DNA of 64,000 bases from Prolixibacteraceae bacterium (GCA_963676375.2 CAXXPT010000012.1:3035-67034), one strand, 5' to 3'. Positions 24,923 to 40,334 are shown, counted from the stretch's first letter. Translations and numbers: made by a program. Notes: generated by a model from the sequence alone, not told the origin.

Positions 24923-26084
24923 GCCTTTGCTTTTCCTTCCTTTGGTTTTGATCCCTTTTATTGTTCTGATATTCTATGTATTGGGAGGGGGAGAAAAGAA
25001 GGAAAAGGAAGAACAAAAGCAAAAAGAGCAGCAAGTGGCAAAGGGTGCCAATTACACCCTTCCTGATGCTGATAAAAGCGTCGCTATCTACGATAAAATG
25101 GACAACTATTCTTCGAAAAAGGAAGTTGCTACCAGTCACGATTACAACATTGCTGGAGAGACCGATTCCACCAATGAGGAAAGCTTGGAAGAGGAAACTC
25201 TGACCGAAGAACAGCTACTTTCCGAAAAGAAGAATCTGTATAAGAACGACCCGGTTCCTGAATTGAATGCCGATGTTTCTACCGATTTGTTGGCACATAT
25301 CCGGCAAAAGGAAAAGAAGGTTAGGGAAGATTTGGAAAACAGCCAGGTTGAAACGAAATCACAAAATGAGGATGCCGACTCAAGTCAGAAAGAGAAAGAT
25401 AACAAAGAGTCAGAAGATAAAAAAGGATCAGTTTCAATTGCTCCGACCGGTATTGAAGAACTGGATAAAGTTTTCCGGCAAAACAGCAGACTGGCAAAAC
25501 AGAACGATTCATTGAATATCCGGCTAAAGGAAACCTCAGTTAAAAATGAGAAGCTGGAAGCCGAAAAGAACAAACGGTCTACCCTGGAGAAAGGGGGTAA
25601 GTCAGGGTTTAAGCCCAAAGATACGGCAGTCCCGGTTATTGAAGCTGAAGTATATGAAACCACCACGGTGCTGACCGGCAACAGGGTGAAGCTGCGGCTT
25701 CTGGAAGAAGCCTGGTTGAACGGGGTAGAAATCCCTGTCAACACCTTTTTGTATGGCATCTGTGAAGTCAGCAACGAACGCCTTCAGATCGAAGTGCTCC
25801 AAATTCCGGTTGGTGAAAAGTTTGTCCCGGTGGAAGTCACTGTTTGCGATCTGGACGGATTGCCGGGATTGTATGTTCCCGATAACGCCTCACGAAAGGT
25901 TGCCAAAGAGGTTGGAAGTAGCGCTAACACTTCCTCTATGTTCGGTGTGAGCAATAATCCGCTGACTTATATGGGAATGCAGGCAGCTGACCGGACAGCC
26001 CAATCCCTGCTAAAAATGATCCGAATCAAAAAAGTCACCATCAAAAAAAATACCCTCGTTTATTTAATCAACAAAAGCAAATAA
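24897..26084 (+). CDS. traM: conjugative transposon protein TraM
   Basis: 395 aa with an N-terminal TM helix, an E/K-rich linker and a conserved C-terminal beta domain (TGNRVKLRLLEE...), in the position before TraN. Confidence 0.8.
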   Translation: MKAYLKRNKPLLFLPLVLIPFIVLIFYVLGGGEKKEKEEQKQKEQQVAKGANYTLPDADKSVAIYDKMDNYSSKKEVATSHDYNIAGETDSTNEESLEEETLTEEQLLSEKKNLYKNDPVPELNADVSTDLLAHIRQKEKKVREDLENSQVETKSQNEDADSSQKEKDNKESEDKKGSVSIAPTGIEELDKVFRQNSRLAKQNDSLNIRLKETSVKNEKLEAEKNKRSTLEKGGKSGFKPKDTAVPVIEAEVYETTTVLTGNRVKLRLLEEAWLNGVEIPVNTFLYGICEVSNERLQIEVLQIPVGEKFVPVEVTVCDLDGLPGLYVPDNASRKVAKEVGSSANTSSMFGVSNNPLTYMGMQAADRTAQSLLKMIRIKKVTIKKNTLVYLINKSK

Positions 26085-26086
26085 CC

Positions 26087-26890
26087 ATGAAAACCTTTTT
26101 AATCATTTTGATTTGTGCATTGATCCAGATTTCGGTTGACGCACAAAATATCCTAAAAATATCCGATAGTAAAACCAGCCATCTGGTTTGCCCCGACAAA
26201 GTCAACTATGTGCAGGCCGGTGATTATTCGATAATCCAGGCCGAAGTTGTTCCCGAACTTTCAAACCTGATCAGGGTGAAAGCCACCCAGCCTTTTGACA
26301 AACCGACCTCCTTGACCGTCGTTTGTGCAGATCACATTTATTCTTTCGAATTGCAGTATGGCAACGATGCTCCGATCACTTACCCGATTGAAACTTTTGG
26401 TTCACAAAAAGCCATGACCTTTTCGGGGCAGCTGATGCCTGATTATCTTCTGAAAGACCTTTGCGATCAGGTTTTGGATCAACACAGGCATAAGTTTCGG
26501 AAGCGCAAGACCGAAAAAGACGGAATCAAAATCCGGCTCAATTCCATTCATCTGAAAAACGATGCACTCTTTTTTGAGCTTCAGATCACCAATAAGACCA
26601 ATATGGCTTATGATGTGGAAAGTTTTAATTTCTGGATCACCGATAAGAAAAAGGCCAAGGCAACCAATGTGCAGGAATATCAGGTTTTTCCGCAGTATCA
26701 GCGGAACAAGGTACTACGTATTCCGGGAGAAGTCACGGTTCGGGAAGTATTTGTGATTGAAAAGATGACCATTCCCGATCAGCGTATCCTAAAGATCGAA
26801 CTCAATGAAAAGGCACTGGGCAACACAGGGCGAAAACTCAGATTTAACCTGAAAAATAAGGATATTCTCAAAGCCAGGTCCCTGAAGTAA
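26087..26890 (+). CDS. traN: conjugative transposon protein TraN
   Basis: 267 aa with a signal peptide, directly after traM. Confidence 0.8.
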   Translation: MKTFLIILICALIQISVDAQNILKISDSKTSHLVCPDKVNYVQAGDYSIIQAEVVPELSNLIRVKATQPFDKPTSLTVVCADHIYSFELQYGNDAPITYPIETFGSQKAMTFSGQLMPDYLLKDLCDQVLDQHRHKFRKRKTEKDGIKIRLNSIHLKNDALFFELQITNKTNMAYDVESFNFWITDKKKAKATNVQEYQVFPQYQRNKVLRIPGEVTVREVFVIEKMTIPDQRILKIELNEKALGNTGRKLRFNLKNKDILKARSLK

Positions 26891-26989: not shown

Positions 26990-27999
26990 ATGTCAATGAC
27001 TGAAGGAAGAGAACTGGAAAAACTGCACGAAGGGTTTCGGTTCTTCAGCTATTTGTTACTGTTTTTATCCATGTACCTGAACCAGTTGGGTTACTTTACA
27101 GTGCATGGGATAAACATCCCGGCATTTAATCCATTGGTAGCCAAAATGCAAAACCTGACATTTCTGGTAAACGTTTATAAATCCAAGACCGTTTGTTTGG
27201 TTTTTCTGGCTATTACCTGTGTGGGGACCAAAGCCCACAAAGACCGAGAACTGGCTGTTTCTACCATAGTCGGGCAGGTGATTGCCGGTCTTATTTTGTA
27301 TTGGGGAAGCCTGATCCTTTTCAAATCTTATCCGGTATCTTATCTGACCTTGACTTTCTTTGGCTTTGTTTTACTGAATATCGGCTTTGACAACATCTCC
27401 AAACTGATCAACGTCAATTTGATGAAAGACCGCTTTAACGTGGAGAACGAAAGCTTTCCGCAGGAAGAAGTTTTAAGGAAGAACGAGTACTCTGTCAACC
27501 TGCCGACAGTTTACCAGCATAAAGGCAGCGAGCACAATGGCTGGATCAACATTGTCAATCCGTTTCGGGCCACAATGGTGATTGGCACTCCCGGCTCCGG
27601 AAAATCTTTTTCGGTAGTATTGCCCTTTATTCGGCAACACCTGAATAAAGGGTTCTCGATGTGTGTCTATGACTTTAAGTATCCGGATTTATCGCTGGTT
27701 ACTTACAACCATTTCCTGAAAGCGAAGAAAAATGGGAAGTTGCCAGAATCCACCCGGTTCTACGTGATCAACTTTGAGAATATTCAAAAATCCTACAGGT
27801 GCAACCCACTGGCACCGGAGTGGATGGAAAGCCCTATCGATGCCTTTGAATCATCCCGGACGGTACTGTACAACCTGAACAGGGAATGGATACGCCAGCA
27901 GGGTGAGTTTTTCTCCGAATCCGCCGTTTCCTTTTTTGCGGCTGTAATCTGGTTTTTGAAAAAGTACAAGGATGGTCGGTTTTGCACTTTGCCCCATGC
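26990..27999 (+). pseudogene. type IV coupling protein (TraG/VirD4 family), 3'-truncated by IS21-family insertion
   Basis: N-terminal TM helices plus Walker A GTPGSGKS. The reading frame runs into the IS inverted repeat at 28000, and the C-terminal half is absent downstream of the IS. Confidence 0.8.
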
Positions 28000-28007
28000 T
28001 GTAAATT

Positions 28008-28073
28008 CCGGTCAAAGTGACCACCCTGTGCCGATTCAAATTGACCATGCGTTGCCGATTTAAATTGACCACC
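28008..28073. repeat. IS21 subterminal repeats, left end (3 copies of AA(A/T)TGACCA(C/T))
   Basis: Three copies are visible: caaagtgaccacc, caaattgaccatg and taaattgaccacc. Confidence 0.7.
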
Positions 28074-28136: not shown

Positions 28137-28874
28137 TTATTCCTTGTTGATACTTTTTTTCTTTCTCATTGATTCTCCATGTAATTCGATGCGGTGAGCC
28201 TGATGAATCAGCCTGTCTAATACCGCATCAGCAATGGTTTTTTCTCCAATAATATCATACCATCCCTGAACCGGTATTTGTGAAGTAACGATTATAGAAC
28301 CCTTATTGTGTCTGTCTTCAATGATTTCCAACAGCGTTATCCTGTTCTGACTGTCGAGTGCCTGGAGTCCAAAATCATCGAGTATAATAACATCTTGCCT
28401 TTCGATTTTCGCTAGTTCCTTCAAGTATGAGCCATCGGCTTTTGCCATTTTTAACTTGGAAAACAGCTTCGATGTATTGAAGTAATTTACCCGGTATCCC
28501 TGGATACATGCCTGATAACCCAGTGCCGTTGCCAAATAACTTTTACCCACACCAGTACTTCCTGTGATTAAAACGTTCTCGTTCTTCTCTACGAACTCAC
28601 ACTCTCCAAGTCGTAAAATGAGGTTGCGTTCCAAGTTCCGTGATTGATCAAAAGTGATGCTTTCGATGTTTGATTTGTAATGGAACTTGGCATTTCTAAT
28701 TAGTCTCTCTATTTTTCGGTTGTGGCGCTCGTCCCATTCGGCATCAATAATCATGGACACAAACTGATCGATGGTGTAATGGTCTGTTTTCCCGGTTTCG
28801 ACTGCAGTTTTAAATGCACCATGCATTCCGGAAAGCTTCATTTGTCTCATTTTCGTTAACGTTGATTCATTCAT
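28137..28874 (-). CDS. istB: IS21-family helper ATPase IstB
   Basis: Walker A GSTGVGKS and Walker B IILDDFG, with the typical N-terminus MRQMKLSGM. Confidence 0.9.
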   Translation of the reverse strand: MNESTLTKMRQMKLSGMHGAFKTAVETGKTDHYTIDQFVSMIIDAEWDERHNRKIERLIRNAKFHYKSNIESITFDQSRNLERNLILRLGECEFVEKNENVLITGSTGVGKSYLATALGYQACIQGYRVNYFNTSKLFSKLKMAKADGSYLKELAKIERQDVIILDDFGLQALDSQNRITLLEIIEDRHNKGSIIVTSQIPVQGWYDIIGEKTIADAVLDRLIHQAHRIELHGESMRKKKSINKE

Positions 28875-28892
28875 AATAATTTGATTTTAAGT

Positions 28893-30440
28893 TTATTTGT
28901 AATAGTTTTTCCCTCGTATGTTGTTGTGTTCGGGCAATTCCGGATCTTCTGTTGTCTCATCCTTAATCATATCCAGGTTGTTTTCAAGGATGTTTTGTAT
29001 GGCTTTAAAACTATAGGTTCCAAAGTCAAGAGCACGTTTGCAGGCATTGATAAGTCTTTGTTTGCCAACCTTCTTTTCAAACGAAAGTATTCCCATACAA
29101 CTTTTAAACGCCTGCTCAGGATGGTTTCGGCTTTCAATGATTTTAAAGATATATTCCCCGGCAACCGGGTCGATACTGTTTGCCCAATTGATAAACCGGG
29201 GAGCAGTCCAATCGGTTACAAATTGATGGGTGCTCGCTAAATGTTCGGGTGTGGTTGTGTAGCTGTAAAGTGCGTAGTCCCGGGGATGGGTAGCCAACCG
29301 ATTGTATTTAAAGTAAATCTCGACCGTTGTTCTGGTGTACATCACCTTCACCTTTTTGCGGATGTATTGATACGGCACGCTATAAAAATGTTTGTCACAA
29401 CTAAGCTGCACATGACCATTTTGCATGACCGTTGCCTGCGCCTGATACTTGATCTCAAAGCGTTGGATGGGCAGTGGCGACAGTTTGTCCTTCTCGATGT
29501 CATTGTATAGCTCAAAACGTGTGTATGGACGGCCGGTGAGCTTTCTGTTGTTGTGTGCATCCAACAGGTCGCCAACGCGATCGTTCAGTTCCGCGATGGA
29601 GAAAAACGTTTCGTCCTTCAGTGCAGCATAAATCCTGCGGTATAATATTTTAACAGCACCTTCAACTAATGATTTGTCCCGTGGTTTATAAGCTCTGGCG
29701 GGTAGAATAGTGGTTTCGTAATGTTCTGCCAGATCTACCAGTGTTTCGTTGATGGTGGGCTCAAAACGGCTGCTTTTTATCACCGCTGACTTTAGATTGT
29801 CCGGAACTATGGCTGCCGGAACGCCTTCAAAAAAACGCATGGCATTTTCTACCGATACAACAAAATCTTCCTTCTTTTGGCTGGGCGTGGCTTCTGCATA
29901 GGTATATTGGCTTGCTCCTAAAACAGCAACAAAAAATTCTACTTCACTTACCTCTCCTGTATCTTTTTCAACCACAGATAGCTTCTTGCCTGCATAATCA
30001 ACAAACATCTTGTCGCCTGCCTTGTGGTTCATGTGCATCACCGGGTTTACCTTCTGGCTCCACAGTTTGTAATACTCCCGGAACTGAGAGCTTTGATAAC
30101 CCCCGGGATATTTTTTAATGTACTCTTCCCACATACACTGGCCCGTGACGCCAACCCGTTTGAGCTCCCGTTCCATATGAGGGAAAAACTCATATAGCTT
30201 TTGTAATCGAGGGCTAATGGACTCTTCCGGAGGGTGTGAAAACAACGTTTCCAACTCAAGGTCAGTCCTTTGATTGATCTCTTCAATGGTCAACCCCTGA
30301 ACTTCAAAAAGGGAAATATACTTCTTTACTGTATTTCTTGATAAGGATAAATATTGGCTTATAAACAGCTTACTTTTCCCGCTGCAATGCAACTTAATCG
30401 CTTTTCTAATTTTACTCATGTCCGTTAATTTATTTGCCAT
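28893..30440 (-). CDS. istA: IS21-family transposase IstA
   Basis: 515 aa with an N-terminal HTH and a DDE integrase core. It lies immediately upstream of istB. Confidence 0.9.
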   Translation of the reverse strand: MANKLTDMSKIRKAIKLHCSGKSKLFISQYLSLSRNTVKKYISLFEVQGLTIEEINQRTDLELETLFSHPPEESISPRLQKLYEFFPHMERELKRVGVTGQCMWEEYIKKYPGGYQSSQFREYYKLWSQKVNPVMHMNHKAGDKMFVDYAGKKLSVVEKDTGEVSEVEFFVAVLGASQYTYAEATPSQKKEDFVVSVENAMRFFEGVPAAIVPDNLKSAVIKSSRFEPTINETLVDLAEHYETTILPARAYKPRDKSLVEGAVKILYRRIYAALKDETFFSIAELNDRVGDLLDAHNNRKLTGRPYTRFELYNDIEKDKLSPLPIQRFEIKYQAQATVMQNGHVQLSCDKHFYSVPYQYIRKKVKVMYTRTTVEIYFKYNRLATHPRDYALYSYTTTPEHLASTHQFVTDWTAPRFINWANSIDPVAGEYIFKIIESRNHPEQAFKSCMGILSFEKKVGKQRLINACKRALDFGTYSFKAIQNILENNLDMIKDETTEDPELPEHNNIRGKNYYK

Positions 30441-30501
30441 AATCCGTTCCTTTTTTGAACGAAAGTATGGGTAACGACATGAAAAAAAGTAACTGATTTT
30501 A

Positions 30502-30612
30502 GGTGGTCAGTTTCCTCCGGAAACAGTGGTCAATTTGCTCCGGAATCTAGTGGTCAGTTTGCCCCGGAAATGGTGGTCAATTTAAACTGGAATCAGGTGG
30601 TCAATTTCACCG
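30502..30612. repeat. IS21 subterminal direct repeats, right end (5 copies, about 22-bp period)
   Basis: Five copies of (A/G)GTGGTCA(G/A)TTT, each followed by a CCGGAA-like or CTGGAA spacer. Confidence 0.75.
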
Positions 30613-30888
30613 TTTTTTCCACTGACATAATAACGTAAAGTTTTACAAGTTTACAACCTCAGTTTCGATTGAGATTTTTCATAATTGTTGTAGATTGTCG
30701 CGTGAAATTGATTGATCAATAATAATTGTCAAATAACTGATACAAAAAATAATATCATTCATAAGTATGGATAGCTACCCTAATCTTGCTGTATACCCTT
30801 TCTTTTGGTAGCGATACAAAATAGTTACATGCAATAATTTAACTTGCAAACGAAGAGATTGATAATTGATTCACAATAGAGCATAAAA

Positions 30889-31704
30889 ATGGCAGCAATA
30901 CCTAAAATTCCGATAGAGATATTAAGAAAGTTATGCGACATTATTGGTGAAACATCTAATGGGCTTTCAAATACTGAGATATCTAAGATGCTCGCTGACT
31001 GTCAAATCAATGATGTTGCCCCAACCCTTAATAAAAGGACAAGAGTATATGAGGCTTTAATTAATAAACAAAATCAAGACAATTGCTCAAATAATATTTT
31101 GAAATTTATTACAACATTTGTTAGTCCAGTAAGCTATATCGGAAATAAGAATCTACACACTGAAAGACTTGGTTACATTAATGAAGTTTTATTATTTGCA
31201 GGATTACAAATTGATGAGAGAGGAACTTTATTAAAGGCAACTGCAGCAAAGACAATAGACGAAGCACAAGAACGCGCTGGTCGTTTAAAGAAAAAACTTG
31301 TTGATAGAGCCGTTCATTCCGATGTCATCAGATTTTGTAACGCAGAACTTCTTCAAGAGAATTATTTTCATGCTGTCTTTGAATCAACAAAAAGCGTAGC
31401 AGATAAGATCAGGGAAAAAACAGGTTTGACACTTGATGGCGCAGACCTTGTAGATAAAGCATTTGGACTTGGACCAACGAACACTCCTAAACTTGCATTT
31501 AATTCCTTGCAGACAGAATCTGAACAAAGTGAGCATAAAGGATTTGCTAATTTACTCAAAGGATTATTTGGAATGTTTAGAAATGTGACAGCACACGTTC
31601 CAAAAATAAAGTGGACGATTAATGAAGAAGATGCACTTGATAGTTTAACAATGGCTTCACTATTACATAGAAAACTTGATAAATGCGTACCGACAGGATA
31701 CTAA
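30889..31704 (+). CDS. HEPN-superfamily protein (Ymh / TIGR02391-like)
   Basis: 271 aa. The C-terminal domain carries an Rx4H motif, R231-NVTA-H236 (FGMFRNVTAHVPK), as in the Ymh clade of HEPN. Confidence 0.65.
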   Translation: MAAIPKIPIEILRKLCDIIGETSNGLSNTEISKMLADCQINDVAPTLNKRTRVYEALINKQNQDNCSNNILKFITTFVSPVSYIGNKNLHTERLGYINEVLLFAGLQIDERGTLLKATAAKTIDEAQERAGRLKKKLVDRAVHSDVIRFCNAELLQENYFHAVFESTKSVADKIREKTGLTLDGADLVDKAFGLGPTNTPKLAFNSLQTESEQSEHKGFANLLKGLFGMFRNVTAHVPKIKWTINEEDALDSLTMASLLHRKLDKCVPTGY

Positions 31705-31769
31705 AAACTGTTTGTAATATGTAGGACTTTAAGCGGTGCGCAGTACCAAGCGTGAAGTCCCGGTTGAAC
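31643..31769 (+). other. attC-like imperfect palindrome after the HEPN gene
   Basis: GTTTAAC-aatgg-CTTCAC ... GTGAAG-tcccg-GTTGAAC. It has a 7-bp outer stem (one G-T), symmetric 5-nt spacers and a 6-bp inner stem, 127 bp in total. The boxes fit RYYYAAC/GTTRRRY. Confidence 0.45.
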
Positions 31770-32014
31770 TACATCCGCATACAGTATCTATTATGGGCTT
31801 ATCAAGGGTATATTGATTCTGATCAGATTGAAATTCGGTAGCTTTCCCCAATTTGGGGGCTTAAACTTACCTTTTTCGCGTTCTGAGGGAAAACTTTTCG
31901 CGAAAATTGCCTGGCCATTCTTCGGAATTGCTTTTTTATTGACTCTTTTTGTCCGGATTAGGCCATACGGCTCCGGCCCTTCCGGATGAAAGGGTTTTGG
32001 TCAGGATGGATGTT

Positions 32015-33166
32015 TTATTGGTGGTTCCGGATATTTTGTGCGTAAAAGCTTGTTGGAGAACGGACCCGTGGCAATTCCTCGACCCGTTGCATGGTTCCCT
32101 GTTTGCAATACGGACACCGACATACATCGAAGCCCGTCAACCGTTTGATTCGCTCCCGCACGTTTTCTTTGGGCTTGAGGCTGATCTCCGTTTTAGGGTT
32201 TTGCTTTTGCTTCAATGCCCTTGCACGGCTGCTGTAAATGCCATACCGGCGTATCTTTACAAAACGGTGCGGCAAAATGTGCTGGCAAAACCTCCGGAGA
32301 AATTCCACCCCGGTGAACGTGACTGGTTTTTGTTTAGCTCCATTGCGATAATCTTTGTGGCGAAAAGTCACACCTGTTTGGTCAACTTTAATTATCCGCT
32401 GGTTGGTAATGGCCACCCGATGTGTGTATTGTCCCAGGTACCTAACCACATGTTCTGCTTTAGCCAGCGAGGGTTCACAATTCACCGACCAGGGTTTGTT
32501 TCTTGCCGCTTTGAGCAAAGGTTTGTACTGCTCATATAACGATTGTTTTTTTAGCCGGCTTTCGATGCATTCCATCAGCTTTCCCCGAAATACCGAGCTT
32601 AACTGTCTGACCGGATACAGGTATTTTCCACTACTCCCAATGTGCTTCATATTTCCGGCAAGTGTTTCCCCTGCTGCCGGAACAATGCAATGAATGTGAG
32701 GGTGCAGACTCAGGTTTTGCCCCCAGGTGTGCAGCACACACACTGCTCCTGTTTCCACCCCGAAACGAGTATAACCCAGTTGGCGCAGGGTTTCCCAAAC
32801 AGCGGAAAACAAACGAATGTAAAACCATTGGCTGTCCAACAGGCAAATGGCATTCAATTCGTGCGCAACCGTGAACACAATATGGTAATGTTTTACCTCA
32901 AGTGTGGTTTCAAGTAAGTCTTCTACCCAGAATGCCTGCTTTGATCCCTGACATTTGGGGCAGTGGCGGTTGCGACAACTGTTATAGCTGATCCGATGTT
33001 TGCCACAGCAATCACATACCTCTTTATGGCCACCTAATTCCGAACTACGGCAAATGCTCAGGGCATTCAGTACCCTTTGCTGGTAACTGTTGGGATGATA
33101 TTCCGATGTAAACTGCGCTCCAAATTGCCGGATTACATCGGCAATCTCGTATTGCGGGCGATTCAT
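32015..33166 (-). CDS. IS91-family (HUH, Y2) rolling-circle transposase
   Basis: N-terminal zinc-binding CDCCG...CRNRHCPKCQ, an HUH-type LHPHIHCIVP, and a Y2 region VVRYLGQYTHRVAI. Confidence 0.9.
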   Translation of the reverse strand: MNRPQYEIADVIRQFGAQFTSEYHPNSYQQRVLNALSICRSSELGGHKEVCDCCGKHRISYNSCRNRHCPKCQGSKQAFWVEDLLETTLEVKHYHIVFTVAHELNAICLLDSQWFYIRLFSAVWETLRQLGYTRFGVETGAVCVLHTWGQNLSLHPHIHCIVPAAGETLAGNMKHIGSSGKYLYPVRQLSSVFRGKLMECIESRLKKQSLYEQYKPLLKAARNKPWSVNCEPSLAKAEHVVRYLGQYTHRVAITNQRIIKVDQTGVTFRHKDYRNGAKQKPVTFTGVEFLRRFCQHILPHRFVKIRRYGIYSSRARALKQKQNPKTEISLKPKENVRERIKRLTGFDVCRCPYCKQGTMQRVEELPRVRSPTSFYAQNIRNHQ

Positions 33167-34065
33167 TTCTTTACCCGGTACAGCGTATCCAGAGGGCTGT
33201 GTGCCTTAATCAGCGGACATTGGGCAACGTGAAGATAAATCATCGTGGTGGCAATGTGTGCATGCCCCAGAAGTTCTTTTAGGGTAACAATGTTCAGACC
33301 TTCTTCCAGCAAATGGGTGGCATAGGTGTGCCGTAGCGAATGCAGGGTGACCTCTTTTCGGATCGCGGTTTTCTTCAGCGATTCGCGCATTACCCACGAC
33401 AGACCCCGAACGCTGTAGCGGCCATCGGGTTCATGCCCGTTAAAAAGCCAGATGTGCGGATGCTCTGCCTGAAGGTACTTCTTCAGCCCTTTGGCCATAT
33501 TATCAGCCAGCGGAACGATACGGTCTTTCTTGTACTTGCTTTGCCGGATGTGAATGGTTCGGCGCTCGAAGTCGATGTCCGACAGTTTCAGGTTGACCAC
33601 TTCCTGCCCACGGAGCCCGGCCGAATAAATCAGCGTTAACACAATGCGGTGTTTGAGCAGCGTGGGTGCCTTAAACAGTTCTTTCAGCTCCGAACGGTTC
33701 AGGATAACGGGCAACTTTGCCTCCTTTTTGAGTGAGGGCAGGGAAATGACTCTTTTGTTTTGTCCGATCAGCCTGAAATAATACCGCAATCCATACACAG
33801 CATGCTTAAACGTGCTTCGCGAAGCTGATTTAGCAGACAAGGCAAGCCCGGTTAGGTATTCGTTGATTTCCTCATCCATGACATGTTCGGGCAACCGTTC
33901 AAAATGAAGCGAGATTTGCGCAATGCGCCGGATGTAATTATCAAGGGTGCTATGGCTTTGGCCACGAAGGGTAACTTGTTGATTAAGCAATTTCAAGGCA
34001 GCAGCAAAGCCTTCAATGGTTTCTGTGGCATGTTCCACGATTGTTTGTCCTGATTTCTTTCTCAT
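33163..34065 (-). CDS. tyrosine recombinase with integron-integrase-like C-terminus
   Basis: Catalytic LRHTYATHLL and LGHAHIATTMIYLHV. HV is followed by 9 residues then SPLDTL, the same spacing as IntI1 (HV-x9-SPLDAL). It lacks the roughly 40-aa IntI-specific insertion. Its stop overlaps the transposase ATG (ATGA). Confidence 0.85.
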   Translation of the reverse strand: MRKKSGQTIVEHATETIEGFAAALKLLNQQVTLRGQSHSTLDNYIRRIAQISLHFERLPEHVMDEEINEYLTGLALSAKSASRSTFKHAVYGLRYYFRLIGQNKRVISLPSLKKEAKLPVILNRSELKELFKAPTLLKHRIVLTLIYSAGLRGQEVVNLKLSDIDFERRTIHIRQSKYKKDRIVPLADNMAKGLKKYLQAEHPHIWLFNGHEPDGRYSVRGLSWVMRESLKKTAIRKEVTLHSLRHTYATHLLEEGLNIVTLKELLGHAHIATTMIYLHVAQCPLIKAHSPLDTLYRVKK

Positions 34066-34167
34066 TGGGAAAACTTTTTAAATTAGTAATCCCGGAAAGT
34101 TCTCAAATCATACTTTATGTTTATATTAGTGAAGATGAAAAAAGCTATCCGCCAGTTGGCGGATTTA

Positions 34168-34297
34168 GTTCAACATCAGCTACTCGGCCAAGTTCGGCAA
34201 CAGGGTTTTCGGTGTGTATCTTTCCGCTTGGGCTGTTTTTCGTCTTGACAGCAAATTGCCCGCAGTCCGCTTATGTGTGTAGCTTTTTGAGTTATGC
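34168..34297 (+). other. attC/attI-like site between recombinase gene and Mrr-like gene
   Basis: GTTCAAC-atc-AGCTAC ... GTAGCT-ttttga-GTTATGC. The 6-bp inner stem is perfect, and the outer boxes pair only partly (4 Watson-Crick pairs plus 1 wobble). Confidence 0.35.
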
Positions 34298-35903: not shown

Positions 35904-36037
35904 GCGCATAACACTGTATATACAAAATGGGCGAGATTGTAGTAAGTTAAATGGTTGTAGCCCGCTTTAAATTGTCTCGGTTTGATTAGTTTGAAGCCCG
36001 CAATCGCTCGCTTTGCATATACTTGTCCGTTGTGCGT
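35904..36037 (+). other. attC-like imperfect palindrome after the Mrr-like gene
   Basis: GCGCATAAC-act-GTATATAC ... GCATATAC-ttgtcc-GTTGTGCGT. The 9-bp outer stem has 2 wobbles, the 8-bp inner stem has 1 mismatch, and AAA/TTT and GCGAG/CTCGC pair further in. It is 134 bp long. Confidence 0.5.
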
Positions 36038-36091
36038 CAGGATACGAATTAGCGGAATCTATTTTGCATTATTGACTTAAATATTTAGAAT

Positions 36092-36643
36092 ATGAAAATT
36101 GCATGTTTAGGTTGGGGATCATTAATTTGGCAACCCAAAAACCTACTTATTAGGAGAGAATGGTTTTCGGATGGACCGTTTTTACCAATCGAATTTGCAA
36201 GAAAATCACAAGATGGCAGATTAACACTTGTGATAACGGAGACAGCTAAACCGATTCGGACATTGTGGGCATTAATGGCGACAGAAAATCTCGATACTGC
36301 TAAAAATTCTTTGCTAGTTCGAGAAGGAATTCCCACAAAAAATATAGATAGTTCTATCGGATCAATAACAATAACAGAAGAAACTGAGAACAAGATAAAG
36401 TTGATTATAAGGGACTGGGCAAATAGGCAGGGACTAGATGCTGTTATATGGACAAACCTTCCACCAAAGTTTGATGCGAACACTTGTGAACCCAGTTTAA
36501 TTCAAGCAATTGATTATTTAAAATCTTTAGATATAAATTCAAGATCAAATGCCGAGGAATATATCAGAAAAACGCCGAAACAAATTGATACGGATTTTAG
36601 ACGGAAATTTGAATCAGAATTTGATTGGACATTTGTTTCTTAA
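36092..36643 (+). CDS. gamma-glutamylcyclotransferase-like (ChaC/GGCT fold) protein, tentative
   Basis: The N-terminal ACLGWGSLIWQP resembles the ChaC/GGCT signature [FY]GYGSLIW. The protein is 183 aa. Confidence 0.4.
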   Translation: MKIACLGWGSLIWQPKNLLIRREWFSDGPFLPIEFARKSQDGRLTLVITETAKPIRTLWALMATENLDTAKNSLLVREGIPTKNIDSSIGSITITEETENKIKLIIRDWANRQGLDAVIWTNLPPKFDANTCEPSLIQAIDYLKSLDINSRSNAEEYIRKTPKQIDTDFRRKFESEFDWTFVS

Positions 36644-36683
36644 CGCACGAACGCACAACATCCAGAAGGTGGAAGATTTGAGC

Positions 36684-36902
36684 ATGCTTATCGAAAAATG
36701 GCGCAAGCCCACCGAAACCAGAAGGAACCTGCAAACCTTCTCTCTGGGAGCAGATGGGTTGGGTGCAACAGTATTCCTTTGGGACGCATCAGGAAAAGAG
36801 GTTAAAACTTCTAACACTCCGGTAGTATTCGCTGTGATGGAAGAAATCAAAACGACTTTGGATGAACGGATCAAAGAAGTTGAAACCCAGATCAAGTTCT
36901 GA
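36684..36902 (+). CDS. small hypothetical protein or gene fragment (72 aa from ATG 36684)
   Basis: The ORF lies in a locally GC-richer segment and is followed directly by a strong hairpin. The upstream part of track ORF 36549 overlaps the previous gene and is probably not translated. Confidence 0.3.
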   Translation: MLIEKWRKPTETRRNLQTFSLGADGLGATVFLWDASGKEVKTSNTPVVFAVMEEIKTTLDERIKEVETQIKF

Positions 36903-37042: not shown

Positions 37043-38320
37043 ATGTATATTATTACGGTACTTAAGGATAAATCCATCAAAGAGGAAATCAGTAAATTAT
37101 TCAGCATTAGAGATTCTTATGATACCATACACATAAAACTCCCTTTAATAGAGTGGATTAGTGCGAATAGCCTGAATTTTCTTGTGACATTTATTGTCTC
37201 CAATAGATATCATTTCCATTTTAAAAAGATTATTATCGAGCTTTTTGAAGCTAAAATTATCTCAGACGTATTAGAAGAAAATGATGTTTCTGAGGAAATA
37301 CTTGACTCATTGACCAAAAAATTAATATTCTATGAGTCGATGGAGTTATATGAGAATATAAATTATGATTATGTTATACAGTTTCCAAACTGCGATACCT
37401 TAAAAAAAGTGAAGGAGTTATTGGTTTCTCATGAATATGAAAAAAAATGGATGTATTCTTCCAAGATGCTGGCGCTTAATCCTCTAATTAATGACGAAAA
37501 AGAACAAATATATCTTACTGCCCGGCTAAATACATTGACAAATATTATATTTCATAATCTATATGGTAAAGTAGATTATGGTGAGGCAAGAGAGGCTAGC
37601 TCCCAGATAATGTATGAACTCGTGAAGAATATATATCAACACGCATATAGTGAGGATATTAGTGCCAGACTGGAGAAACACGGTATAGCCTGTGCGCAGA
37701 TTAATAAATTTCCAATTATCCAAAATAAAGAATATAGTTTAAAGGATATTAGCGGAATTTTAGAATTGGTTAAAAAAAGGACGAAAGGCAAAGTCTGGAA
37801 ATTTTTATCCATTTCGATTTGTGATTTCGGTGTTGGTATTAATTCAGTAATTAGAACAGATTTGAAAAGTAAGTTGACAAGTGAGAAAAGCGATTTTACG
37901 ATCGGTGAATTTACTGTGAATGAAGAATTATTGGCGGATGACTATAAGTTGATCGAGATCCCCATAAGAACTGAGTATAGTACCAAGACTTTATCCGACA
38001 AAAGAGAAGATTGGACAATTAGTAAAGAAAGAAAACTGGTACTTTCTAGAAGGGGGCGGGGATATATTTTCTGCATTTGCTTCGTTGGCGAATTTTTTGG
38101 AAGGATGCAGATTCGAAGCAATAATTATGTATTGGATGTCTTTGCCAAAGAAAGTGCTGCATTGAGAAGTACTAAGTGGAGAACAGAACCCGAAGAATCA
38201 CTTGCTATCATTGAGAAAGAATTTGGGAATTACTTTCAAATAATACAAAAAAAAGAAAAAGGATTTTTCCCAGGAACTCAAATCATAATCGAAATTCCAG
38301 TCGAAGTTTTTCAAAATTGA
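37043..38320 (+). CDS. GHKL-type ATPase-like protein (histidine-kinase/anti-sigma-kinase-like ATP-binding fold)
   Basis: N-box-like E192-LVK-N196-IYQHA, G1-box-like D261-F-G-V-G265, RRGRGY, and the terminal GTQIIIEIP typical of HATPase_c ends. The N-terminal 180 aa are uncharacterised. Confidence 0.55.
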   Translation: MYIITVLKDKSIKEEISKLFSIRDSYDTIHIKLPLIEWISANSLNFLVTFIVSNRYHFHFKKIIIELFEAKIISDVLEENDVSEEILDSLTKKLIFYESMELYENINYDYVIQFPNCDTLKKVKELLVSHEYEKKWMYSSKMLALNPLINDEKEQIYLTARLNTLTNIIFHNLYGKVDYGEAREASSQIMYELVKNIYQHAYSEDISARLEKHGIACAQINKFPIIQNKEYSLKDISGILELVKKRTKGKVWKFLSISICDFGVGINSVIRTDLKSKLTSEKSDFTIGEFTVNEELLADDYKLIEIPIRTEYSTKTLSDKREDWTISKERKLVLSRRGRGYIFCICFVGEFFGRMQIRSNNYVLDVFAKESAALRSTKWRTEPEESLAIIEKEFGNYFQIIQKKEKGFFPGTQIIIEIPVEVFQN

Positions 38321-38330
38321 CATTATTACA

Positions 38331-40334
38331 ATGAGTTATAATTGGAACGAAGTAGCATTGGTTGATTTAAAAAATCAGCCTTTTAGAAATAATAATGGTA
38401 TTGAAATAAATTTATTGGATTATCTGTTTAATCAGATTAATCTAATTGTTAAGCAACAAGAGCTTAGTCAAAAAAATAGTTTTGAAAAATTCAGGCAAAG
38501 TCGCTGTTTGATTTGTTTGGATTCGGTAAATATATCAAATGAAGATTGCTCGCTTTTGGACACTCTTATCCCAGTAAGTGAAAAACATCCATTTATTTTA
38601 ATCAATTGTTCTGTTGATTCTATCAATCTTTTTTCACTTGCATTACATGCCGATTTTCAAAGGCTGGGGTACATTTTACCCATATTTGGACAATTAACAC
38701 CAATTGATCCTGTTTATGTCAAAGAAAAGTATGGAATCAAATTTTATGAATTTTTAAATGGAGAAGTTGACACGCTTTCAATCTCGGATTTAAAAGATCC
38801 CGACAAAGTTTTGGTTGATGATATTCTTAGAAGGTATTCATATCTCGAATGCATAAATGATGTTTTAAGGTTTGTGGATAATCACATTGAATGGTTGGGG
38901 GTCAAATCTAAAAAATTCAAAGACCTGCTAAATCATTTATATTCAAGTAATAGGGAATGTTTTGATCCCCAGTGGGCAGTCAATACTTTTGGTGTCTCTG
39001 AAAGTGAATTAAATCGTTATAGCCAAAGTTCAATGCTGTTCAGCAAAGAAGGTGATCAAATCAGGTTCAGATTTCTAAAAAGCAATTTGTTTTTAAAGAT
39101 TCAGTCAAAACTATACTACCAATTTGAAGAAAAAATGATCGAAGCCGAAGCTTTGCAGGTCTATAGAAAAACCAAAGCAGGCGAAAGCAGTTTTAATGAG
39201 TATCATAATATTGGGAGGGTCTTTGAAAATACAGATCGGTATAAGCTTAAGTTACTGGCGGCATTCAAGAAGAAAATAGCATATCATTTTCCGGACTTTC
39301 TCTATCCTCAGCAGAAATCAATTATCTTGATTGATAACGGTTATGAATCAGGAATGTATTTCCTGCTAAAAAAGTATTTCCCCAGCAAAAAGGTAACCAG
39401 AATTCTGAATTGCCATGATCATCCAATAATTTACCCGTTTGATGAAGAGATTAATAGTTCAGATAACGCAATTGTGGTAATTGATCTCATCAATACCGGT
39501 AATTTTCTTAGTAAAGTAGTCAAAATGGTAAAGGATATGTATAAAGCGGAAATCTTCGCAGTTTATACATTCGTTATTAATGGCTCAATAGCGACAAATC
39601 AGATCAGTTCCGCACCTATTTTTTCATATGTGGAAAAGAAACTTGAAAAGTCAGATGAAATAAAGGATATCTTACATGCAACCAGAGACAATGCTCGTGA
39701 CAATTTCAGATATAAAAGCTTTTGGCAAATCATTAATAATGTGGGCAGCATTGATGGGAAAATTCAACAAAATGTCGTTAGAAAGGGAGGTTCTATTTTT
39801 TATACACTATACAGAAACAAGATTTTTGTTGACGTAAAAAATCCTTCTTTTGAAACGACTGATTTTAATGTTTTTTTGGGAACAATAATAACATCGAATA
39901 ACATTAATAAAATAATTTTTCTCAGCGAGAACTCGAAATCGTTTTTCCATTCACTGAATGATTTTTCTAAGTATACGGTTAACTCGGTGATTTTTAATAG
40001 TAAAAGCAAAACATTTTCATCCCAAATTTTTGACTCGGATCGGATTCTAATTTTGGATGTTACCTTATTAAGCGGACACAACATCGAAGCTTGTTTAACT
40101 GAATTAGATAAAAAAGAATACCATAATCGTAAAGTTTTTGTCGCTGTTTTCTTTGAGAAAAGGATTATCGATGAAAATGTTATTGGTAAAATTGATTCTT
40201 TAGTTAATCTGCACCCGGAATTGAAGGGAAAAATCTTTAAATATTACACAAGTAATATTCCTTTTTATAAAATTGATAAAGACTCAATTAATTCAAGCAG
40301 AATAAAAAATAGTTTAGAAAAATATAAGAAATGA
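38331..40334 (+). CDS. protein with two phosphoribosyltransferase-like (type I PRTase) segments
   Basis: AIVVIDLINTGNF (aa 380-392, nt 39468-) and RILILDVTLLSGH (aa 571-583, nt 40041-) resemble the PRPP-loop pattern (hydrophobic x4, acidic, xxx[TS]G). Each is preceded by a beta-strand/Gly segment (SIILIDNGYESG). Each has one acidic residue rather than two. Confidence 0.45.
   Translation: MSYNWNEVALVDLKNQPFRNNNGIEINLLDYLFNQINLIVKQQELSQKNSFEKFRQSRCLICLDSVNISNEDCSLLDTLIPVSEKHPFILINCSVDSINLFSLALHADFQRLGYILPIFGQLTPIDPVYVKEKYGIKFYEFLNGEVDTLSISDLKDPDKVLVDDILRRYSYLECINDVLRFVDNHIEWLGVKSKKFKDLLNHLYSSNRECFDPQWAVNTFGVSESELNRYSQSSMLFSKEGDQIRFRFLKSNLFLKIQSKLYYQFEEKMIEAEALQVYRKTKAGESSFNEYHNIGRVFENTDRYKLKLLAAFKKKIAYHFPDFLYPQQKSIILIDNGYESGMYFLLKKYFPSKKVTRILNCHDHPIIYPFDEEINSSDNAIVVIDLINTGNFLSKVVKMVKDMYKAEIFAVYTFVINGSIATNQISSAPIFSYVEKKLEKSDEIKDILHATRDNARDNFRYKSFWQIINNVGSIDGKIQQNVVRKGGSIFYTLYRNKIFVDVKNPSFETTDFNVFLGTIITSNNINKIIFLSENSKSFFHSLNDFSKYTVNSVIFNSKSKTFSSQIFDSDRILILDVTLLSGHNIEACLTELDKKEYHNRKVFVAVFFEKRIIDENVIGKIDSLVNLHPELKGKIFKYYTSNIPFYKIDKDSINSSRIKNSLEKYKK

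What the first reader, a model, noticed from the sequence alone, without database searches (positions are those of the whole stretch)
31763..34174. IntI-like tyrosine recombinase translationally coupled to an IS91 Y2 rolling-circle transposase, itself packaged like a cassette
The 300-aa recombinase ends LGHAHIATTMIYLHV-x9-SPLDTL, the same spacing as the IntI1 C-terminus. It lacks the roughly 40-aa IntI-specific insertion between KDR and LRH. Its stop overlaps the ATG of an intact IS91-family HUH/Y2 transposase (ATGA). The two-gene unit is bounded by 17/20-matching inverted repeats whose outermost 7 nt are GTTGAAC/GTTCAAC. Those 7-mers serve both as integron-type core/inverse-core boxes and as carriers of the GTTC tetranucleotide known as the IS91 target/end signal. 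There are two readings. (a) It is a two-ORF IS91-family element that landed in or next to an attC. (b) It is a hybrid element in which a rolling-circle transposase supplies single-stranded DNA and an IntI-type enzyme recombines folded single-stranded hairpin sites. Reading (b) is speculation but mechanistically coherent.
Basis: partly seen in the sequence, partly recalled or inferred. Interest (0 to 1): 0.65.

Follow-up and report, generated by a model that had tools for sequence, protein, structure and literature searches.

The report
attC-targeting IS91 element with integrase
This is a two-gene jumping element (a rolling-circle transposase plus an integron-like recombinase) that is built like a backwards integron gene cassette and, in every relative examined, sits at the same nucleotide of the hairpin recombination site that follows a cassette gene, among them resistance cassettes in clinical Flavobacteria.

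Summary
The recombinase, the IS91 Y2 transposase, the ATGA overlap, the missing IntI insertion and the 17/20 inverted repeat are all real. The transposase-distal repeat is subterminal, not terminal: a conserved 45-nt hairpin lies beyond it. The element spans window 31718-34173 (±2 nt).

The gene pair itself is known: a two-ORF IS91 subgroup (ISWz1-like, the 'IS91-XerD' clusters), whose recombinases are already classed as integron-like.

I did not find the following in the literature searched:
- In at least 13 independent insertions the element lies at RYYYAA|C of the ORF-proximal box of an attC-like site. It is antisense to the cassette genes, 10-50 nt after a stop codon.
- An empty site (Bacteroides plasmid versus Myroides plasmid) shows precise insertion without target duplication.
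- The element's joined ends fold into their own attC-like site (13 covarying pairs).
- Head-to-tail tandems exist.

Reading (a) is right and can be made exact. Reading (b) fits every feature but cannot be separated by sequence from insertion by the HUH transposase alone. The window's array is a defence-gene cassette cluster in a Bacteroidota conjugative element, with no other tyrosine recombinase in 64 kb.

The parts
31718..34173 (-). Whole mobile element, 2,456 bp. The AA dinucleotide occurs at both junctions, so each boundary may shift by 0-2 nt.
   Evidence: Boundaries come from 5 near-identical copies in different contexts, the family alignment of ends, and an empty site for a relative. 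A contig in runs X1 and X2 diverges just after 34175.
31718..31762 (-). Transposase-distal (ori-side) 45-nt tail: a nested hairpin (outer stem GGACTTCACGC/GCTTAAAGTCC, inner stem GGTAC/GCACC) followed by the terminal CCTACATA.
   Evidence: 10 of 16 pairs show compensatory changes across 14 elements. 88.6% of cells of the whole 31-pair structure (both helices) are paired, against 28-41% in slid controls. Classical IS91-family oriIS also carries subterminal palindromes (PMC13181058).
31763..31782 (.). Subterminal inverted-repeat arm. GTTGAAC on the + strand fits GTTRRRY; GTTCAAC on the gene strand fits RYYYAAC and is the element's own R''-type box.
   Evidence: The arm GGGAT(G/T)TAGTTCAAC is nearly invariant across the family.
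32015..33166 (-). IS91-family HUH/Y2 rolling-circle transposase, 383 aa, intact.
   Evidence: NF033538 at 379 bits (cutoff 125), plus Pfam Y2_Tnp and Zn_Tnp_IS91. HPHIH and YLGQY motifs are visible in the translation.
33163..34065 (-). Tyrosine recombinase, 300 aa, of the Xer/IntI 'simple' type without the IntI insertion. Its stop codon overlaps the transposase start (ATGA).
   Evidence: The catalytic R, K, HxxR, H and Y residues align with XerA and IntI4. It is 69-81% identical across the family, against 54-76% for the transposase.
34147..34164 (.). Subterminal palindrome ATCCGCCAGTTGGCGGAT, 3 nt from GTTC(AA). This is the ter-side hairpin.
   Evidence: The stem varies between elements but stays paired (CGCAAAAGCG, CACATTCGTG, CTCCGG and others). 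It matches the published terIS layout of a single subterminal palindrome next to a GTTC cleavage site (PMC13181058).
34155..34173 (.). Terminal inverted-repeat arm ending GTTCAA on the + strand (TTGAAC at the start of the gene strand).
   Evidence: The motif TTG(A/T)ACTAAACC plus hairpin is conserved even in the Clostridium and Caballeronia relatives.
31705..31717 (+). Host side of the interrupted attC-like site: 13 nt after the stop codon of the PD-Lambda-3_B gene, ending TTTGTAA (the RYYYAA part of the R'' box).
   Evidence: In 16 of 17 insertions the equivalent flank, read on the gene strand, begins TT, and in 15 of those 16 the next base is a purine.
34174..34297 (+). Remainder of the same host attC-like site: C-A, the L'' arm, the centre, the L' arm, then G|TTATGC.
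   Evidence: nhmmer hit at 34171-34295, E = 2.8e-6. TTATGCGC at 34292 is complementary to GCGCATAA at 35904, the R'' of the next cassette.
35904..36039 (+). Intact neighbouring attC-like site of the 522-aa cassette (GCGCATAAC ... GTTGTGC).
   Evidence: nhmmer E = 7.5e-17. The fold pairs GCGCATAAC with GTTGTGCG.
30889..31704 (+). Cassette gene whose attC-like site is interrupted: a PD-Lambda-3_B / Hypoth_Ymh defence protein.

Best explanation
**What it is.** A member of the two-ORF branch of the IS91 family (tyrosine recombinase followed by an HUH/Y2 transposase) that specialises in integron-type attC-like sites and is itself laid out as an inverted gene cassette.

**Shown:**
- The element is the segment TTGAAC ... 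int ... tnpA ... GTTCAAC-[45-nt nested hairpin]-CCTAYNTA.
- It is inserted without target duplication exactly at RYYYAA|C of the ORF-proximal (R'') box of an attC-like hairpin.
- It always lies antisense to the cassette genes.
- When its two ends are joined they form a long stem (the two repeat arms), a short unpaired spacer and a second covarying stem-loop. This is the R box / spacer / L box / loop plan of an attC.
- Near-identical multicopy sets and head-to-tail tandems show it is mobile.

**Inferred mechanism:**
1. The transposase nicks after YAA at the ori side and after GTTCAA at the ter side.
2. As in IS91, it peels off and circularises the strand antisense to the genes.
3. That strand is the 'bottom strand' of the element viewed as a cassette, and its junction folds into the attC-like hairpin.
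4. The recombinase then pairs this hairpin with a folded host attC strand and exchanges one strand at AA|C.
5. Replication completes the insertion.

The division of labour in steps 1-4 is the least certain part. The transposase could perform the strand transfer itself, with the recombinase providing attC recognition or resolution.
For: **Family and ends.**
- The int-tnp pair is present in 24 of the 26 genome loci found (truncated in some; no recombinase match in L025, and none adjacent to the transposase fragment in L001), mostly Bacteroidota. The recombinase is the more conserved of the two proteins.
- GTTGAAC lies about 100-120 nt upstream of int and GTTCAAC about 235-285 nt downstream of tnp in almost every locus with enough flank.
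- Copies that are 99.6-100% identical define the ends.
- Own-site structure: 88.6% of cells paired and 13 pairs with changes on both sides, reached by 0 of 500 shuffles. Slid controls give 28-41%.
- The window's junction folds at -15 and -16.9 kcal/mol (z = -4.5 and -4.7, 0 of 200 shuffles).

**Target.**
- The left flanks are attC-like sites of about 60-135 nt, of the form xxYAAC-G..arm...arm-TG|.
- An HMM built from them recovers 9 further sites outside the training set, all in the same orientation. Two of these immediately precede second element copies.
- Flanking ORFs are antisense to the element in about 12 of 13 loci, and a stop codon lies 10-50 nt from the ori end.

**Empty site.** The aadS attC in plasmid NZ_CP072225 equals the exact join of the two flanks of the Myroides p63039 element.

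**Tandems.** One contig holds a head-to-tail tandem of two elements that are 85% identical. Another contig is circularly permuted.

**Agreement with classical IS91.** The published layout has ter upstream of the gene pair, a single palindrome next to GTTC, ori palindromes, no target duplication, and ss and ds circles (PMC13181058).

**Context.** There is no other tyrosine recombinase in the 64-kb window.
Against: - No experiment or read-level evidence here shows a single-stranded circle or recombinase activity.
- Only assembled contigs were available for the window's own runs. They showed neither an empty site nor a circle, and the predicted empty-site sequence was absent from metagenome contigs.
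- Each sequence feature is also what a purely HUH-driven IS91 mechanism predicts: the ter sequence resembles the target, the cleavage sites sit at hairpin feet, and there is no duplication.
- The last base of the element's own site is A/T where an integron cassette has G/C.
- The host strand used is the opposite of the one IntI uses.
- The recombinase lacks the IntI domain that reads extrahelical bases.
- Four or five left flanks (L002, L012, L013, L020, and partly L018) are not convincingly attC-like.
- Host sites are not thermodynamically exceptional (z about -0.7). They are recognised by homology and architecture.
Confidence: 0.6

Rival explanations
1. An ordinary IS91-type rolling-circle transposon. 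The HUH/Y2 transposase alone nicks ori, ter and the target, and joins the strand. attC-like sites are hit because their R'' box (RYYYAAC at the foot of a hairpin, exposed as single-stranded DNA) resembles the element's ter sequence GTTCAAC. The recombinase is an accessory. It might resolve multimers or cointegrates, tether the transposase to attC, or regulate, in the way Orf121 of IS91 occupies the same coupled upstream position.
For: - In classical IS91 members the target tetranucleotide resembles the ter cleavage site and abuts ori. They make no duplication and carry subterminal palindromes (PMC13181058).
- Here GTTC sits next to a single ter palindrome, as in IS801 and IS1294.
- IS91 itself carries an upstream, translationally coupled accessory ORF.
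- The transposase is intact and scores as a full IS91-family member.
Against: - The sequence next to ori is NYAA, not GTTC or CTTG.
- Specificity extends to a structured site of 60-135 nt with a fixed orientation. That is far beyond a tetranucleotide.
- The recombinase is more conserved than the transposase, and its nearest characterised relatives are enzymes that act on exactly this kind of site.
- The 15-bp repeat arms are invariant while the transposase falls to 55% identity.
Confidence: 0.3
2. A recombinase-driven cassette. The tyrosine recombinase alone excises and integrates the unit, as IntI does with cassettes, using the hybrid attC-like sites on both sides. The IS91 transposase is passenger cargo, or serves only for occasional one-ended capture of neighbouring DNA.
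For: - The layout is that of a cassette and the crossover lies at G|TT / AA|C.
- Tandem arrays resemble repeated cassette insertion at one point.
- Circular forms of ISWz1-flanked segments have been reported (PMC11322121).
Against: - The transposase is retained, usually intact, in almost all of the loci found in the genome collection and in distant phyla.
- The ends carry IS91-type ter and ori features.
- Insertion uses the host strand opposite to the one IntI uses.
Confidence: 0.08
3. Coincidence. The repeats and core-like heptamers are chance matches, and the attC-like neighbour is unrelated to the element.
For: Within the window alone, the 16-nt repeat ranks 21st among inverted pairs. The motif with up to 3 mismatches is not far above the chance expectation (3 matches observed against a mean of 0.74 in shuffles).
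Against: Family-wide invariance of the heptamers, covariation, at least 13 independent attC insertions, and an exact empty site.
Confidence: 0.01

Closest known systems
Two-ORF IS91-family elements (ISWz1 of Weeksellaceae and similar; the 'IS91 transposase + XerD' pairs reported beside tet(X), catB and aadS in Chryseobacterium, Elizabethkingia and Myroides)
   Same: Same gene pair, order and coupling. The Myroides p63039 copies (46% identical recombinase) have the same ends and the same insertion rule. The literature notes the association with resistance genes (PMC11194056, PMC11322121).
   Different: The papers I could search treat them as a transposase plus a separate XerD, or as 'truncated IS' copies. 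None describes attC-like targets, the exact insertion point, the antisense rule or the element's own attC-like end. The window copy lies among defence cassettes, not resistance cassettes.
Classical IS91 / IS801 / IS1294 (one-gene rolling-circle IS; IS91 has the coupled Orf121)
   Same: HUH/Y2 transposase. No target duplication. ter carries a single subterminal palindrome next to GTTC, and ori carries palindromes. An upstream ORF has a stop codon overlapping the tnpA start (PMC13181058).
   Different: The target is a 4-nt GTTC/CTTG anywhere, not a structured attC box. The upstream ORF is a small regulator, not a recombinase. The ends do not form an attC-like junction.
Integron integrase IntI and integron gene cassettes
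   Same: The recombinase is nearest to IntI and XerA among characterised enzymes, and its C-terminus aligns to the end of IntI4. The element has a cassette layout with RYYYAAC/GTTRRRY boxes. The crossover lies at AA|C (equivalently G|TT). The start of the element is complementary to its own R'' box.
   Different: - It has no IntI-specific insertion and scores below the IntI cutoffs.
- The gene lies inside the mobile unit rather than beside an attI.
- Insertion is at the ORF-proximal box, in reverse orientation, which implies the host top strand.
- The unit's last base is A rather than G.
IS1111-attC insertion sequences and group IIC-attC introns
   Same: Both are mobile elements that specifically invade attC sites of cassettes. 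The introns also sit opposite to cassette orientation (as summarised in PMC9229058).
   Different: The enzymology is unrelated (a DEDD transposase; a ribozyme with reverse transcriptase). Neither carries an integron-like recombinase or mimics a cassette.

Membership tests
IS91 family (rolling-circle IS) | HUH/Y2 transposase with an N-terminal zinc-binding domain | tested here: met
   NF033538 at 379 bits (cutoff 125); Pfam Y2_Tnp 178 bits and Zn_Tnp_IS91 95 bits. HPHIH and YLGQY motifs are visible in the translation.
IS91 family (rolling-circle IS) | Insertion without target-site duplication | tested here: met
   Empty versus filled aadS attC for a 46%-identical relative. Five Prolixibacteraceae copies show no flanking direct repeats. 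Not shown directly for the window copy (one search found no empty site).
IS91 family (rolling-circle IS) | ter end: a single subterminal palindrome adjacent to a GTTC-type cleavage site. ori end: subterminal palindrome(s). | tested here: met
   Palindrome at 34147-34164 followed by TTA-GTTC(AA). Nested ori hairpin at 31718-31762 with covariation. Criteria taken from PMC13181058.
IS91 family (rolling-circle IS) | Target tetranucleotide GTTC/CTTG abutting the ori end | tested here: not met
   The flank next to ori reads NYAA in 16 of 17 insertions, or NNYY if the cut is placed after GTTC. The target is a structured attC-like box instead.
Integron integrase (IntI) | Tyrosine-recombinase fold and catalytic residues | tested here: met
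   Pfam Phage_integrase 125 bits and SAM_4. R, K, HxxR, H and Y align with XerA and IntI4.
Integron integrase (IntI) | IntI-specific additional domain (an insertion of about 35-45 aa before the HxxR box) | tested here: not met
   IntI4 residues 182-248 and the IntI1 segment AWWLKDQAEG...GHSW have no counterpart.
Integron integrase (IntI) | Scores above the curated family cutoff | tested here: not met
   TIGR02249 162 bits against 265; NF011946 99.5 against 435; best hit XerA_Arch 193 against 220.
Integron integrase (IntI) | Located beside an attI site and promoter at the head of a cassette array | tested here: not met
   The gene lies inside a mobile unit within an attC-like site, antisense to the cassettes.
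Integron gene cassette | ORF(s) followed by an imperfect-palindromic site with RYYYAAC ... GTTRRRY boxes. The first bases of the unit are complementary to its own R'' box. | tested here: met
   TTGAAC at the start against GTTCAA(C) at its own site; stem, spacer, stem and loop supported by covariation.
Integron gene cassette | Integrated at G|TT of the ORF-distal (R') box, in the same orientation as the other cassettes | tested here: not met
   Always at the ORF-proximal box and antisense. The geometry is a mirror image of the canonical one.
Integron gene cassette | Mobilised by IntI-type recombination of the folded bottom strand | not testable with these tools
   Requires recombination assays.
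attC-type recombination sites (the host sites) | Sites of 55-140 nt directly after single ORFs in same-orientation arrays, with R''/R' boxes. The start of each cassette is complementary to its own R'' box. | tested here: met
   - Window: TTATGCGC at 34292 against GCGCATAA at 35904.
- Myroides: TTGTACGAC against GTCGTACAA.
- Arrays in L016-L023 and L027.
- The folding energy itself is not exceptional.
- No canonical IntI was seen in any locus.

The most novel reading that the evidence does not exclude
The recombinase carried by these IS91-type units is the missing integrase of the Bacteroidota attC-like cassette arrays. On this reading it is a portable integron-integrase analogue that travels as a rolling-circle cassette. 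It would act not only on its own ends but also excise and insert neighbouring resistance and defence cassettes. That would explain arrays that lack a canonical IntI, such as this window and the Myroides and Bacteroides plasmids. It would also explain the homology-independent integration of attC-like resistance cassettes reported in Riemerella, whose enzyme is unknown (PMC13148043).
Probability: 0.3. Interest if true: 0.9.

Novelty: new variant of a known kind. Interest (0 to 1): 0.72.

Why it matters
Three points.

1. **Mechanism.** Rolling-circle transposition yields a single-stranded circle, and integron recombination consumes folded single strands. An element that couples the two would be a natural link between two mobile-DNA systems usually treated as unrelated. 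It would also offer a way to learn what an IntI-like enzyme can do without the IntI insertion.

2. **Antibiotic resistance.** The same element type sits between aadS, blaOXA, blaMYO-1, catB and tet(X) cassettes in Myroides, Riemerella, Empedobacter and Chryseobacterium. A 2026 paper describes attC-like cassettes integrating in Riemerella by an unknown enzyme. This recombinase is a concrete candidate that can be tested.

3. **Annotation.** These units are currently split into 'XerD' plus an 'IS91 transposase', or called truncated IS copies, and their attC-like targets go unrecognised. The end motifs given here allow them to be delimited exactly.

Tried and rejected
- **Rfam scan of the window:** no hits.
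- **Exact-protein lookup of the transposase:** not on record.
- **Ungapped search for AAC...GTT palindromes and an energy-based hairpin scan:** neither discriminates attC-like sites from background. The known site ranked only 14th of 2,358. I replaced them with a sequence HMM.
- **Laying public runs on the locus:** only assembled contigs were available. They gave no empty site or circle junction. The one 'joint' (31110 to 34105) rests on 24 letters and matches a chance direct repeat (and D5).
- **Predicted empty-site 24-mer for the window:** absent from metagenome contigs.
- **A third attC-like site at 36644-36790:** it has a plausible R'' box (ACGCACAAC, complementary to the cassette start TTGTGCGTC), but no fold support (z = 0.25 and -0.68) and no HMM hit. 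Left open.
- **The 373-aa recombinase next to one Prolixibacteraceae array (L004):** considered as a canonical IntI and rejected. It has no insertion and similar sub-cutoff scores.
- **Not run:** a full phylogeny. I relied on HMM, PDB and BLASTP scores and on the published classification.
- **IS91 papers not held:** Mendiola 1994 and Toleman 2006. The criteria for ends and target were taken from PMC13181058 instead.
Full report
**1. What is in the window**

Two intact genes lie on the minus strand. The first is a 300-aa tyrosine recombinase (33163-34065). The second is a 383-aa IS91-family transposase (32015-33166). Their stop and start codons overlap as ATGA.

The transposase scores 379 bits on NCBIfam IS91 (cutoff 125). 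It has the Y2_Tnp and zinc-binding domains, and the HPHIH and YLGQY motifs are visible in its translation.

The recombinase has the Phage_integrase and SAM_4 domains. Its best curated matches are all below cutoff: XerA_Arch / 'integron integrase' 193 bits, IntI 162, XerD 144, XerC 142. Among solved structures, archaeal XerA scores 118 bits and Vibrio IntI4 110. The IntI4 match comes in two stretches that skip IntI4 residues 182-248 and then run to the C-terminal SPL. BLASTP gives IntI1 110 bits (28.8% identity), XerD 93 and XerC 77. A multiple alignment shows that the IntI1 insertion is absent from this protein and from IS91-linked recombinases of Myroides, Arenibacter, Clostridium and Caballeronia.

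'IntI-like' is fair as a description of nearest relatives, but the defining IntI feature is missing. This has been published in general terms. A classification of tyrosine recombinases states that the 'Integron-like' subgroup includes recombinases found in IS91 and IS3 elements, which lack the IntI insertion (bioRxiv 10.1101/542381).

**2. The ends**

The 17/20 inverted repeat is present (31763-31782 / 34155-34174, I21). On its own it would not stand out.

A scan of one genome per species returned 26 loci encoding a relative of the transposase. In 24 of them the recombinase, whole or in part, lies just upstream of it. One Prolixibacteraceae genome holds five copies that are 99.6-100% identical over about 2,435 bp and unrelated outside that span. 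These copies start at (TG)TTGAACTAAATCC. They end 45 nt beyond GTTCAAC, at ...CCTATTTA(TT).

The same architecture holds in 14 family members whose transposases are only 54-83% identical. Its parts, in order:
- a nearly invariant 15-nt arm, GGGAT(G/T)TAGTTCAAC;
- a nested hairpin;
- the terminus CCTAYNTA;
- at the other end, the complementary arm, followed by a short hairpin of variable sequence.

In window coordinates the element is 31718-34173. The boundaries are uncertain by 2 nt because AA occurs at both junctions.

**3. The joined ends form a conserved structure**

I wrote the right end followed by the left end, as they would be in a circle or a tandem. The two arms then form a 15-bp stem. 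It encloses 3 unpaired nt, an 11-bp stem with an inner 5-bp stem-loop, and 6 unpaired nt.

On the 14-sequence alignment:
- 88.6% of cells are standard pairs, against 28-41% when the partner columns are slid;
- 13 pairs show changes on both sides, a count reached by 0 of 500 shuffles;
- 10 of these lie among the 16 pairs of the inner helix.

The window's own junction folds at -15.0 kcal/mol on the gene strand and -16.9 on the opposite strand (z = -4.5 and -4.7). The plan is that of an attC site: R box, unpaired spacer, L box, variable loop. The R'' box is GTTCAAC (fits RYYYAAC) and the R' box is (A)TTGAAC (fits GTTRRRY apart from its first base).

**4. Where it sits**

The sequence to the left of the element, read on the gene strand, is an imperfect palindrome of about 60-135 nt in most independent insertions. 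It has the form xxYAAC-G-arm ... arm-TG|, and the element begins TTGAAC. To the right, 16 of 17 flanks begin TT, and in 15 of those 16 the next base is a purine.

The long sites from different genomes are homologous to one another and share motifs such as GATTGCGGGC and AAGCGGGCTACAA. An HMM built from them also finds nine sites that were not in the training set, all in the same orientation. Two of these directly abut second, decayed element copies in L017 and L022. The rest are uninterrupted and end TG|TTRRRY or, in one case, TA|TT.

Flanking ORFs lie on the opposite strand in about 12 of 13 loci. The stop codon of the right-hand ORF lies 10-50 nt from the element's ori end.

Read in the orientation of the host genes, the rule is as follows: gene, stop codon, RYYYAA | element (antisense) | C-A, then the rest of that gene's attC-like site, then G|TTRRRY and the next gene.

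The window follows this rule:
- The PD-Lambda-3_B gene stops at 31704.
- TTTGTAA ends at 31717.
- The element occupies 31718-34173.
- C-A and the remaining site run to GA-G|TTATGC at 34291.

The next cassette starts TTATGCGC and carries GCGCATAAC as its own R'' box at 35904. This is the start-to-R'' complementarity that marks integron cassettes.

**5. An annotated example and an empty site**

Plasmid p63039 of a clinical Myroides odoratimimus carries this arrangement:

catB | int-IS91 | aadS | int-IS91 | aadS | blaMYO-1 | blaOXA

The aadS, blaMYO-1 and blaOXA genes are antisense to the two elements (the partial catB upstream is not) and are separated by the same family of sites. The right flank of each element, TTGTACGAC, is the exact complement of the aadS cassette's R'' box, GTCGTACAA.

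I joined 200 nt of left flank to 200 nt of right flank and searched the plasmid collection. This found a Bacteroides thetaiotaomicron plasmid in which the join is contiguous...CCAATACGATG|TTGTACGACG.... Insertion is therefore precise, with no duplication or loss. The crossover falls within the TTG shared by the element and the target.

**6. Evidence of mobility and of cassette-like behaviour**

- Near-identical multicopy sets occur in the Prolixibacteraceae genome and, at the protein level, in Persicobacter.
- A contig in the window's own sample diverges just after 34175 into a different flank, which suggests a second insertion site.
- A metagenome scan for the head-to-tail junction found three contigs:
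  - one has a complete element followed directly by the left end of a different element, 85% identical;
  - one is circularly permuted (a circle or a tandem);
  - one is a junction without genes.

**7. How it most likely works**

Published work on classical IS91 members establishes several points (PMC13181058):
- ter lies upstream of the coding region and has a single palindrome next to a GTTC-type cleavage site.
- ori lies downstream and has palindromes.
- The target tetranucleotide resembles the ter site and abuts ori.
- No duplication is made.
- Single- and double-stranded circles with an ori-ter junction are formed.

By that mapping, the window's 34147-34173 is ter (a palindrome, then TTA-GTTC-AA) and 31718-31762 is ori. 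HUH enzymes bind the 5' end and displace the nicked strand from ori to ter. The displaced strand is therefore the one antisense to the genes, which is the window's + strand.

On that strand the element reads T-ATGTA-[hairpin]-CG-GTTGAAC ... antisense ORFs ... GTTCAA. This is the layout of an integron cassette's bottom strand, the strand that IntI recombines. All three cleavage points (ori, ter and target) are 'YAA|' at the 5' foot of a hairpin on one strand.

The hybrid model therefore fits: the transposase supplies the folded single-stranded circle, and the recombinase joins it to a folded host site. So does a model in which the transposase does everything. Three observations favour participation of the recombinase:
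- It is more strongly conserved than the transposase.
- The arms are invariant.
- Target specificity goes far beyond a tetranucleotide, and the expected GTTC/CTTG next to ori is absent.

Against a simple IntI analogy:
- The host strand used is the top one.
- The domain that reads extrahelical bases is missing.
- The unit ends in A rather than G.

I put about 0.6 on the hybrid mechanism, whichever enzyme makes the final joint, about 0.3 on the HUH-only version, and under 0.1 on a recombinase-only cassette.

**8. Comparison with what is known**

The gene pair is a known branch of the IS91 family. Examples are ISWz1 and relatives, reported beside tet(X), catB and aadS as 'IS91 plus XerD' (PMC11194056, PMC11322121). 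[quoted passage not shown] The pair also occurs in Clostridium and Caballeronia, with the same left-end motif.

Elements that target attC sites are known, namely IS1111-attC and group IIC-attC introns, but they use unrelated enzymes.

Eight full-text searches found no description of any of the following:
- the insertion rule;
- the antisense orientation;
- the element's own attC-like end;
- a link to cassette arrays in Bacteroidota.

A 2026 paper on Riemerella reports homology-independent integration of a resistance gene together with a 140-bp attC-like 3' region. It states that the mechanism is not yet elucidated (PMC13148043). The library does not cover subscription journals or the ISfinder and TnPedia notes, so prior description cannot be excluded.

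**9. Context in the window**

The array lies in a Bacteroidota conjugative element. TraM is at 24897-26084, TraN/DUF4138 at 26087-26890, and a short TraG-like ORF at 26990-28063 that is followed by an IS21. The cassettes and neighbouring genes are defence-type: PD-Lambda-3_B, bSEFIR, and ThsB with a SLOG protein. The element's recombinase is the only tyrosine recombinase in the 64 kb.

**10. Verdict**

Reading (a) is established and can be stated to the nucleotide. Reading (b) is a coherent and now sharply testable hypothesis. The element is a new member of a known family, but its targeting and cassette mimicry amount to a new variant of that kind, with direct relevance to how resistance and defence cassettes move in Bacteroidota.

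Noticed in passing
window 28137-30620: An IS21-family element (istB 28137-28874, istA 28893-30440, both minus strand) with a run of GGTGGTCA(G/A)TTT repeats at 30500-30610. It follows a short (357-aa) YWFCY/TraG-like coupling-protein ORF (26990-28063) of a Bacteroidota conjugative transposon and probably truncates it. TraM is at 24897-26084 and TraN/DUF4138 at 26087-26890.
   Followed up: partly
window 30889-31704: The cassette gene next to the element is a strong PD-Lambda-3_B match (271 bits), with no PD-Lambda-3_A partner evident nearby. It may be an orphan component or a single-gene variant of that defence system.
   Followed up: no
window 37043-41470 and 42062-43830: A three-gene plus-strand operon ends in a bSEFIR/TIR protein (40331-41470). 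Its two upstream ORFs (425 and 667 aa) match no family. A convergent minus-strand pair follows: ThsB-like TIR (42637-43830, 409 bits) and a SLOG cluster-3 protein (42062-42655). This looks like a Thoeris-like variant in which SLOG replaces the usual ThsA.
   Followed up: no
window 36644-36902: A GC-richer stretch (46-47% against about 30% around it) lies just after the 183-aa cassette ORF. It begins ACGCACAAC, which is complementary to that cassette's start TTGTGCGTC as an R'' box would be. But it does not fold like the neighbouring sites and is not hit by the site HMM. A 117-aa ORF (36549-36902) overlaps it.
   Followed up: partly
L033 (Ga0209287_10017146) 75-2634; L032 (Ga0210049_1056026); L034 (Ga0164318_10003990) 12380-12460: - L033: head-to-tail tandem of two diverged elements (85% identical).
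- L032: a circularly permuted 2.26-kb contig, either a circle or a tandem.
- L034: a junction-like sequence (tail remnant followed by a left end) on a contig with no recombinase or transposase. It could be a miniature derivative.
   Followed up: partly
L004 6751-7872 (Prolixibacteraceae OY759982.1): A 373-aa tyrosine recombinase lies two genes from an element insertion, on the same strand as the cassette-like genes. It is 33% identical to the element's recombinase, has an N-terminal extension of about 100 aa, and also lacks the IntI insertion. It may be a resident integrase of that array.
   Followed up: partly
L003 5454-6293; L027 (Myroides p63039); L031 (B. thetaiotaomicron plasmid): Cassette-like units bounded by these sites carry a class D beta-lactamase (environmental Prolixibacteraceae) and aadS, blaMYO-1, blaOXA and catB (clinical Myroides). 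The same aadS unit, with its site intact, lies next to tet(X2) and ere(D) in a conjugative Bacteroides plasmid.
   Followed up: partly
window 34175, runs X1 and X2: In the two public runs that hold this locus, a contig leaves the element's left end into a different flank (AAGTGTAGCGGGCAA). This suggests at least one more insertion of the same or a near-identical element in that sample.
   Followed up: no
L029 (Caballeronia plasmid) and L030 (Clostridium estertheticum plasmid): Distant int-IS91 pairs (recombinases 36-38% identical) keep the left-end motif TTG(A/T)ACTAAACC followed by a GC hairpin, and a matching subterminal arm downstream. In the Clostridium copy, the sequence just outside the left end is complementary to sequence about 290 nt past the transposase stop. 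I could not tell whether their targets are attC-like.
   Followed up: partly
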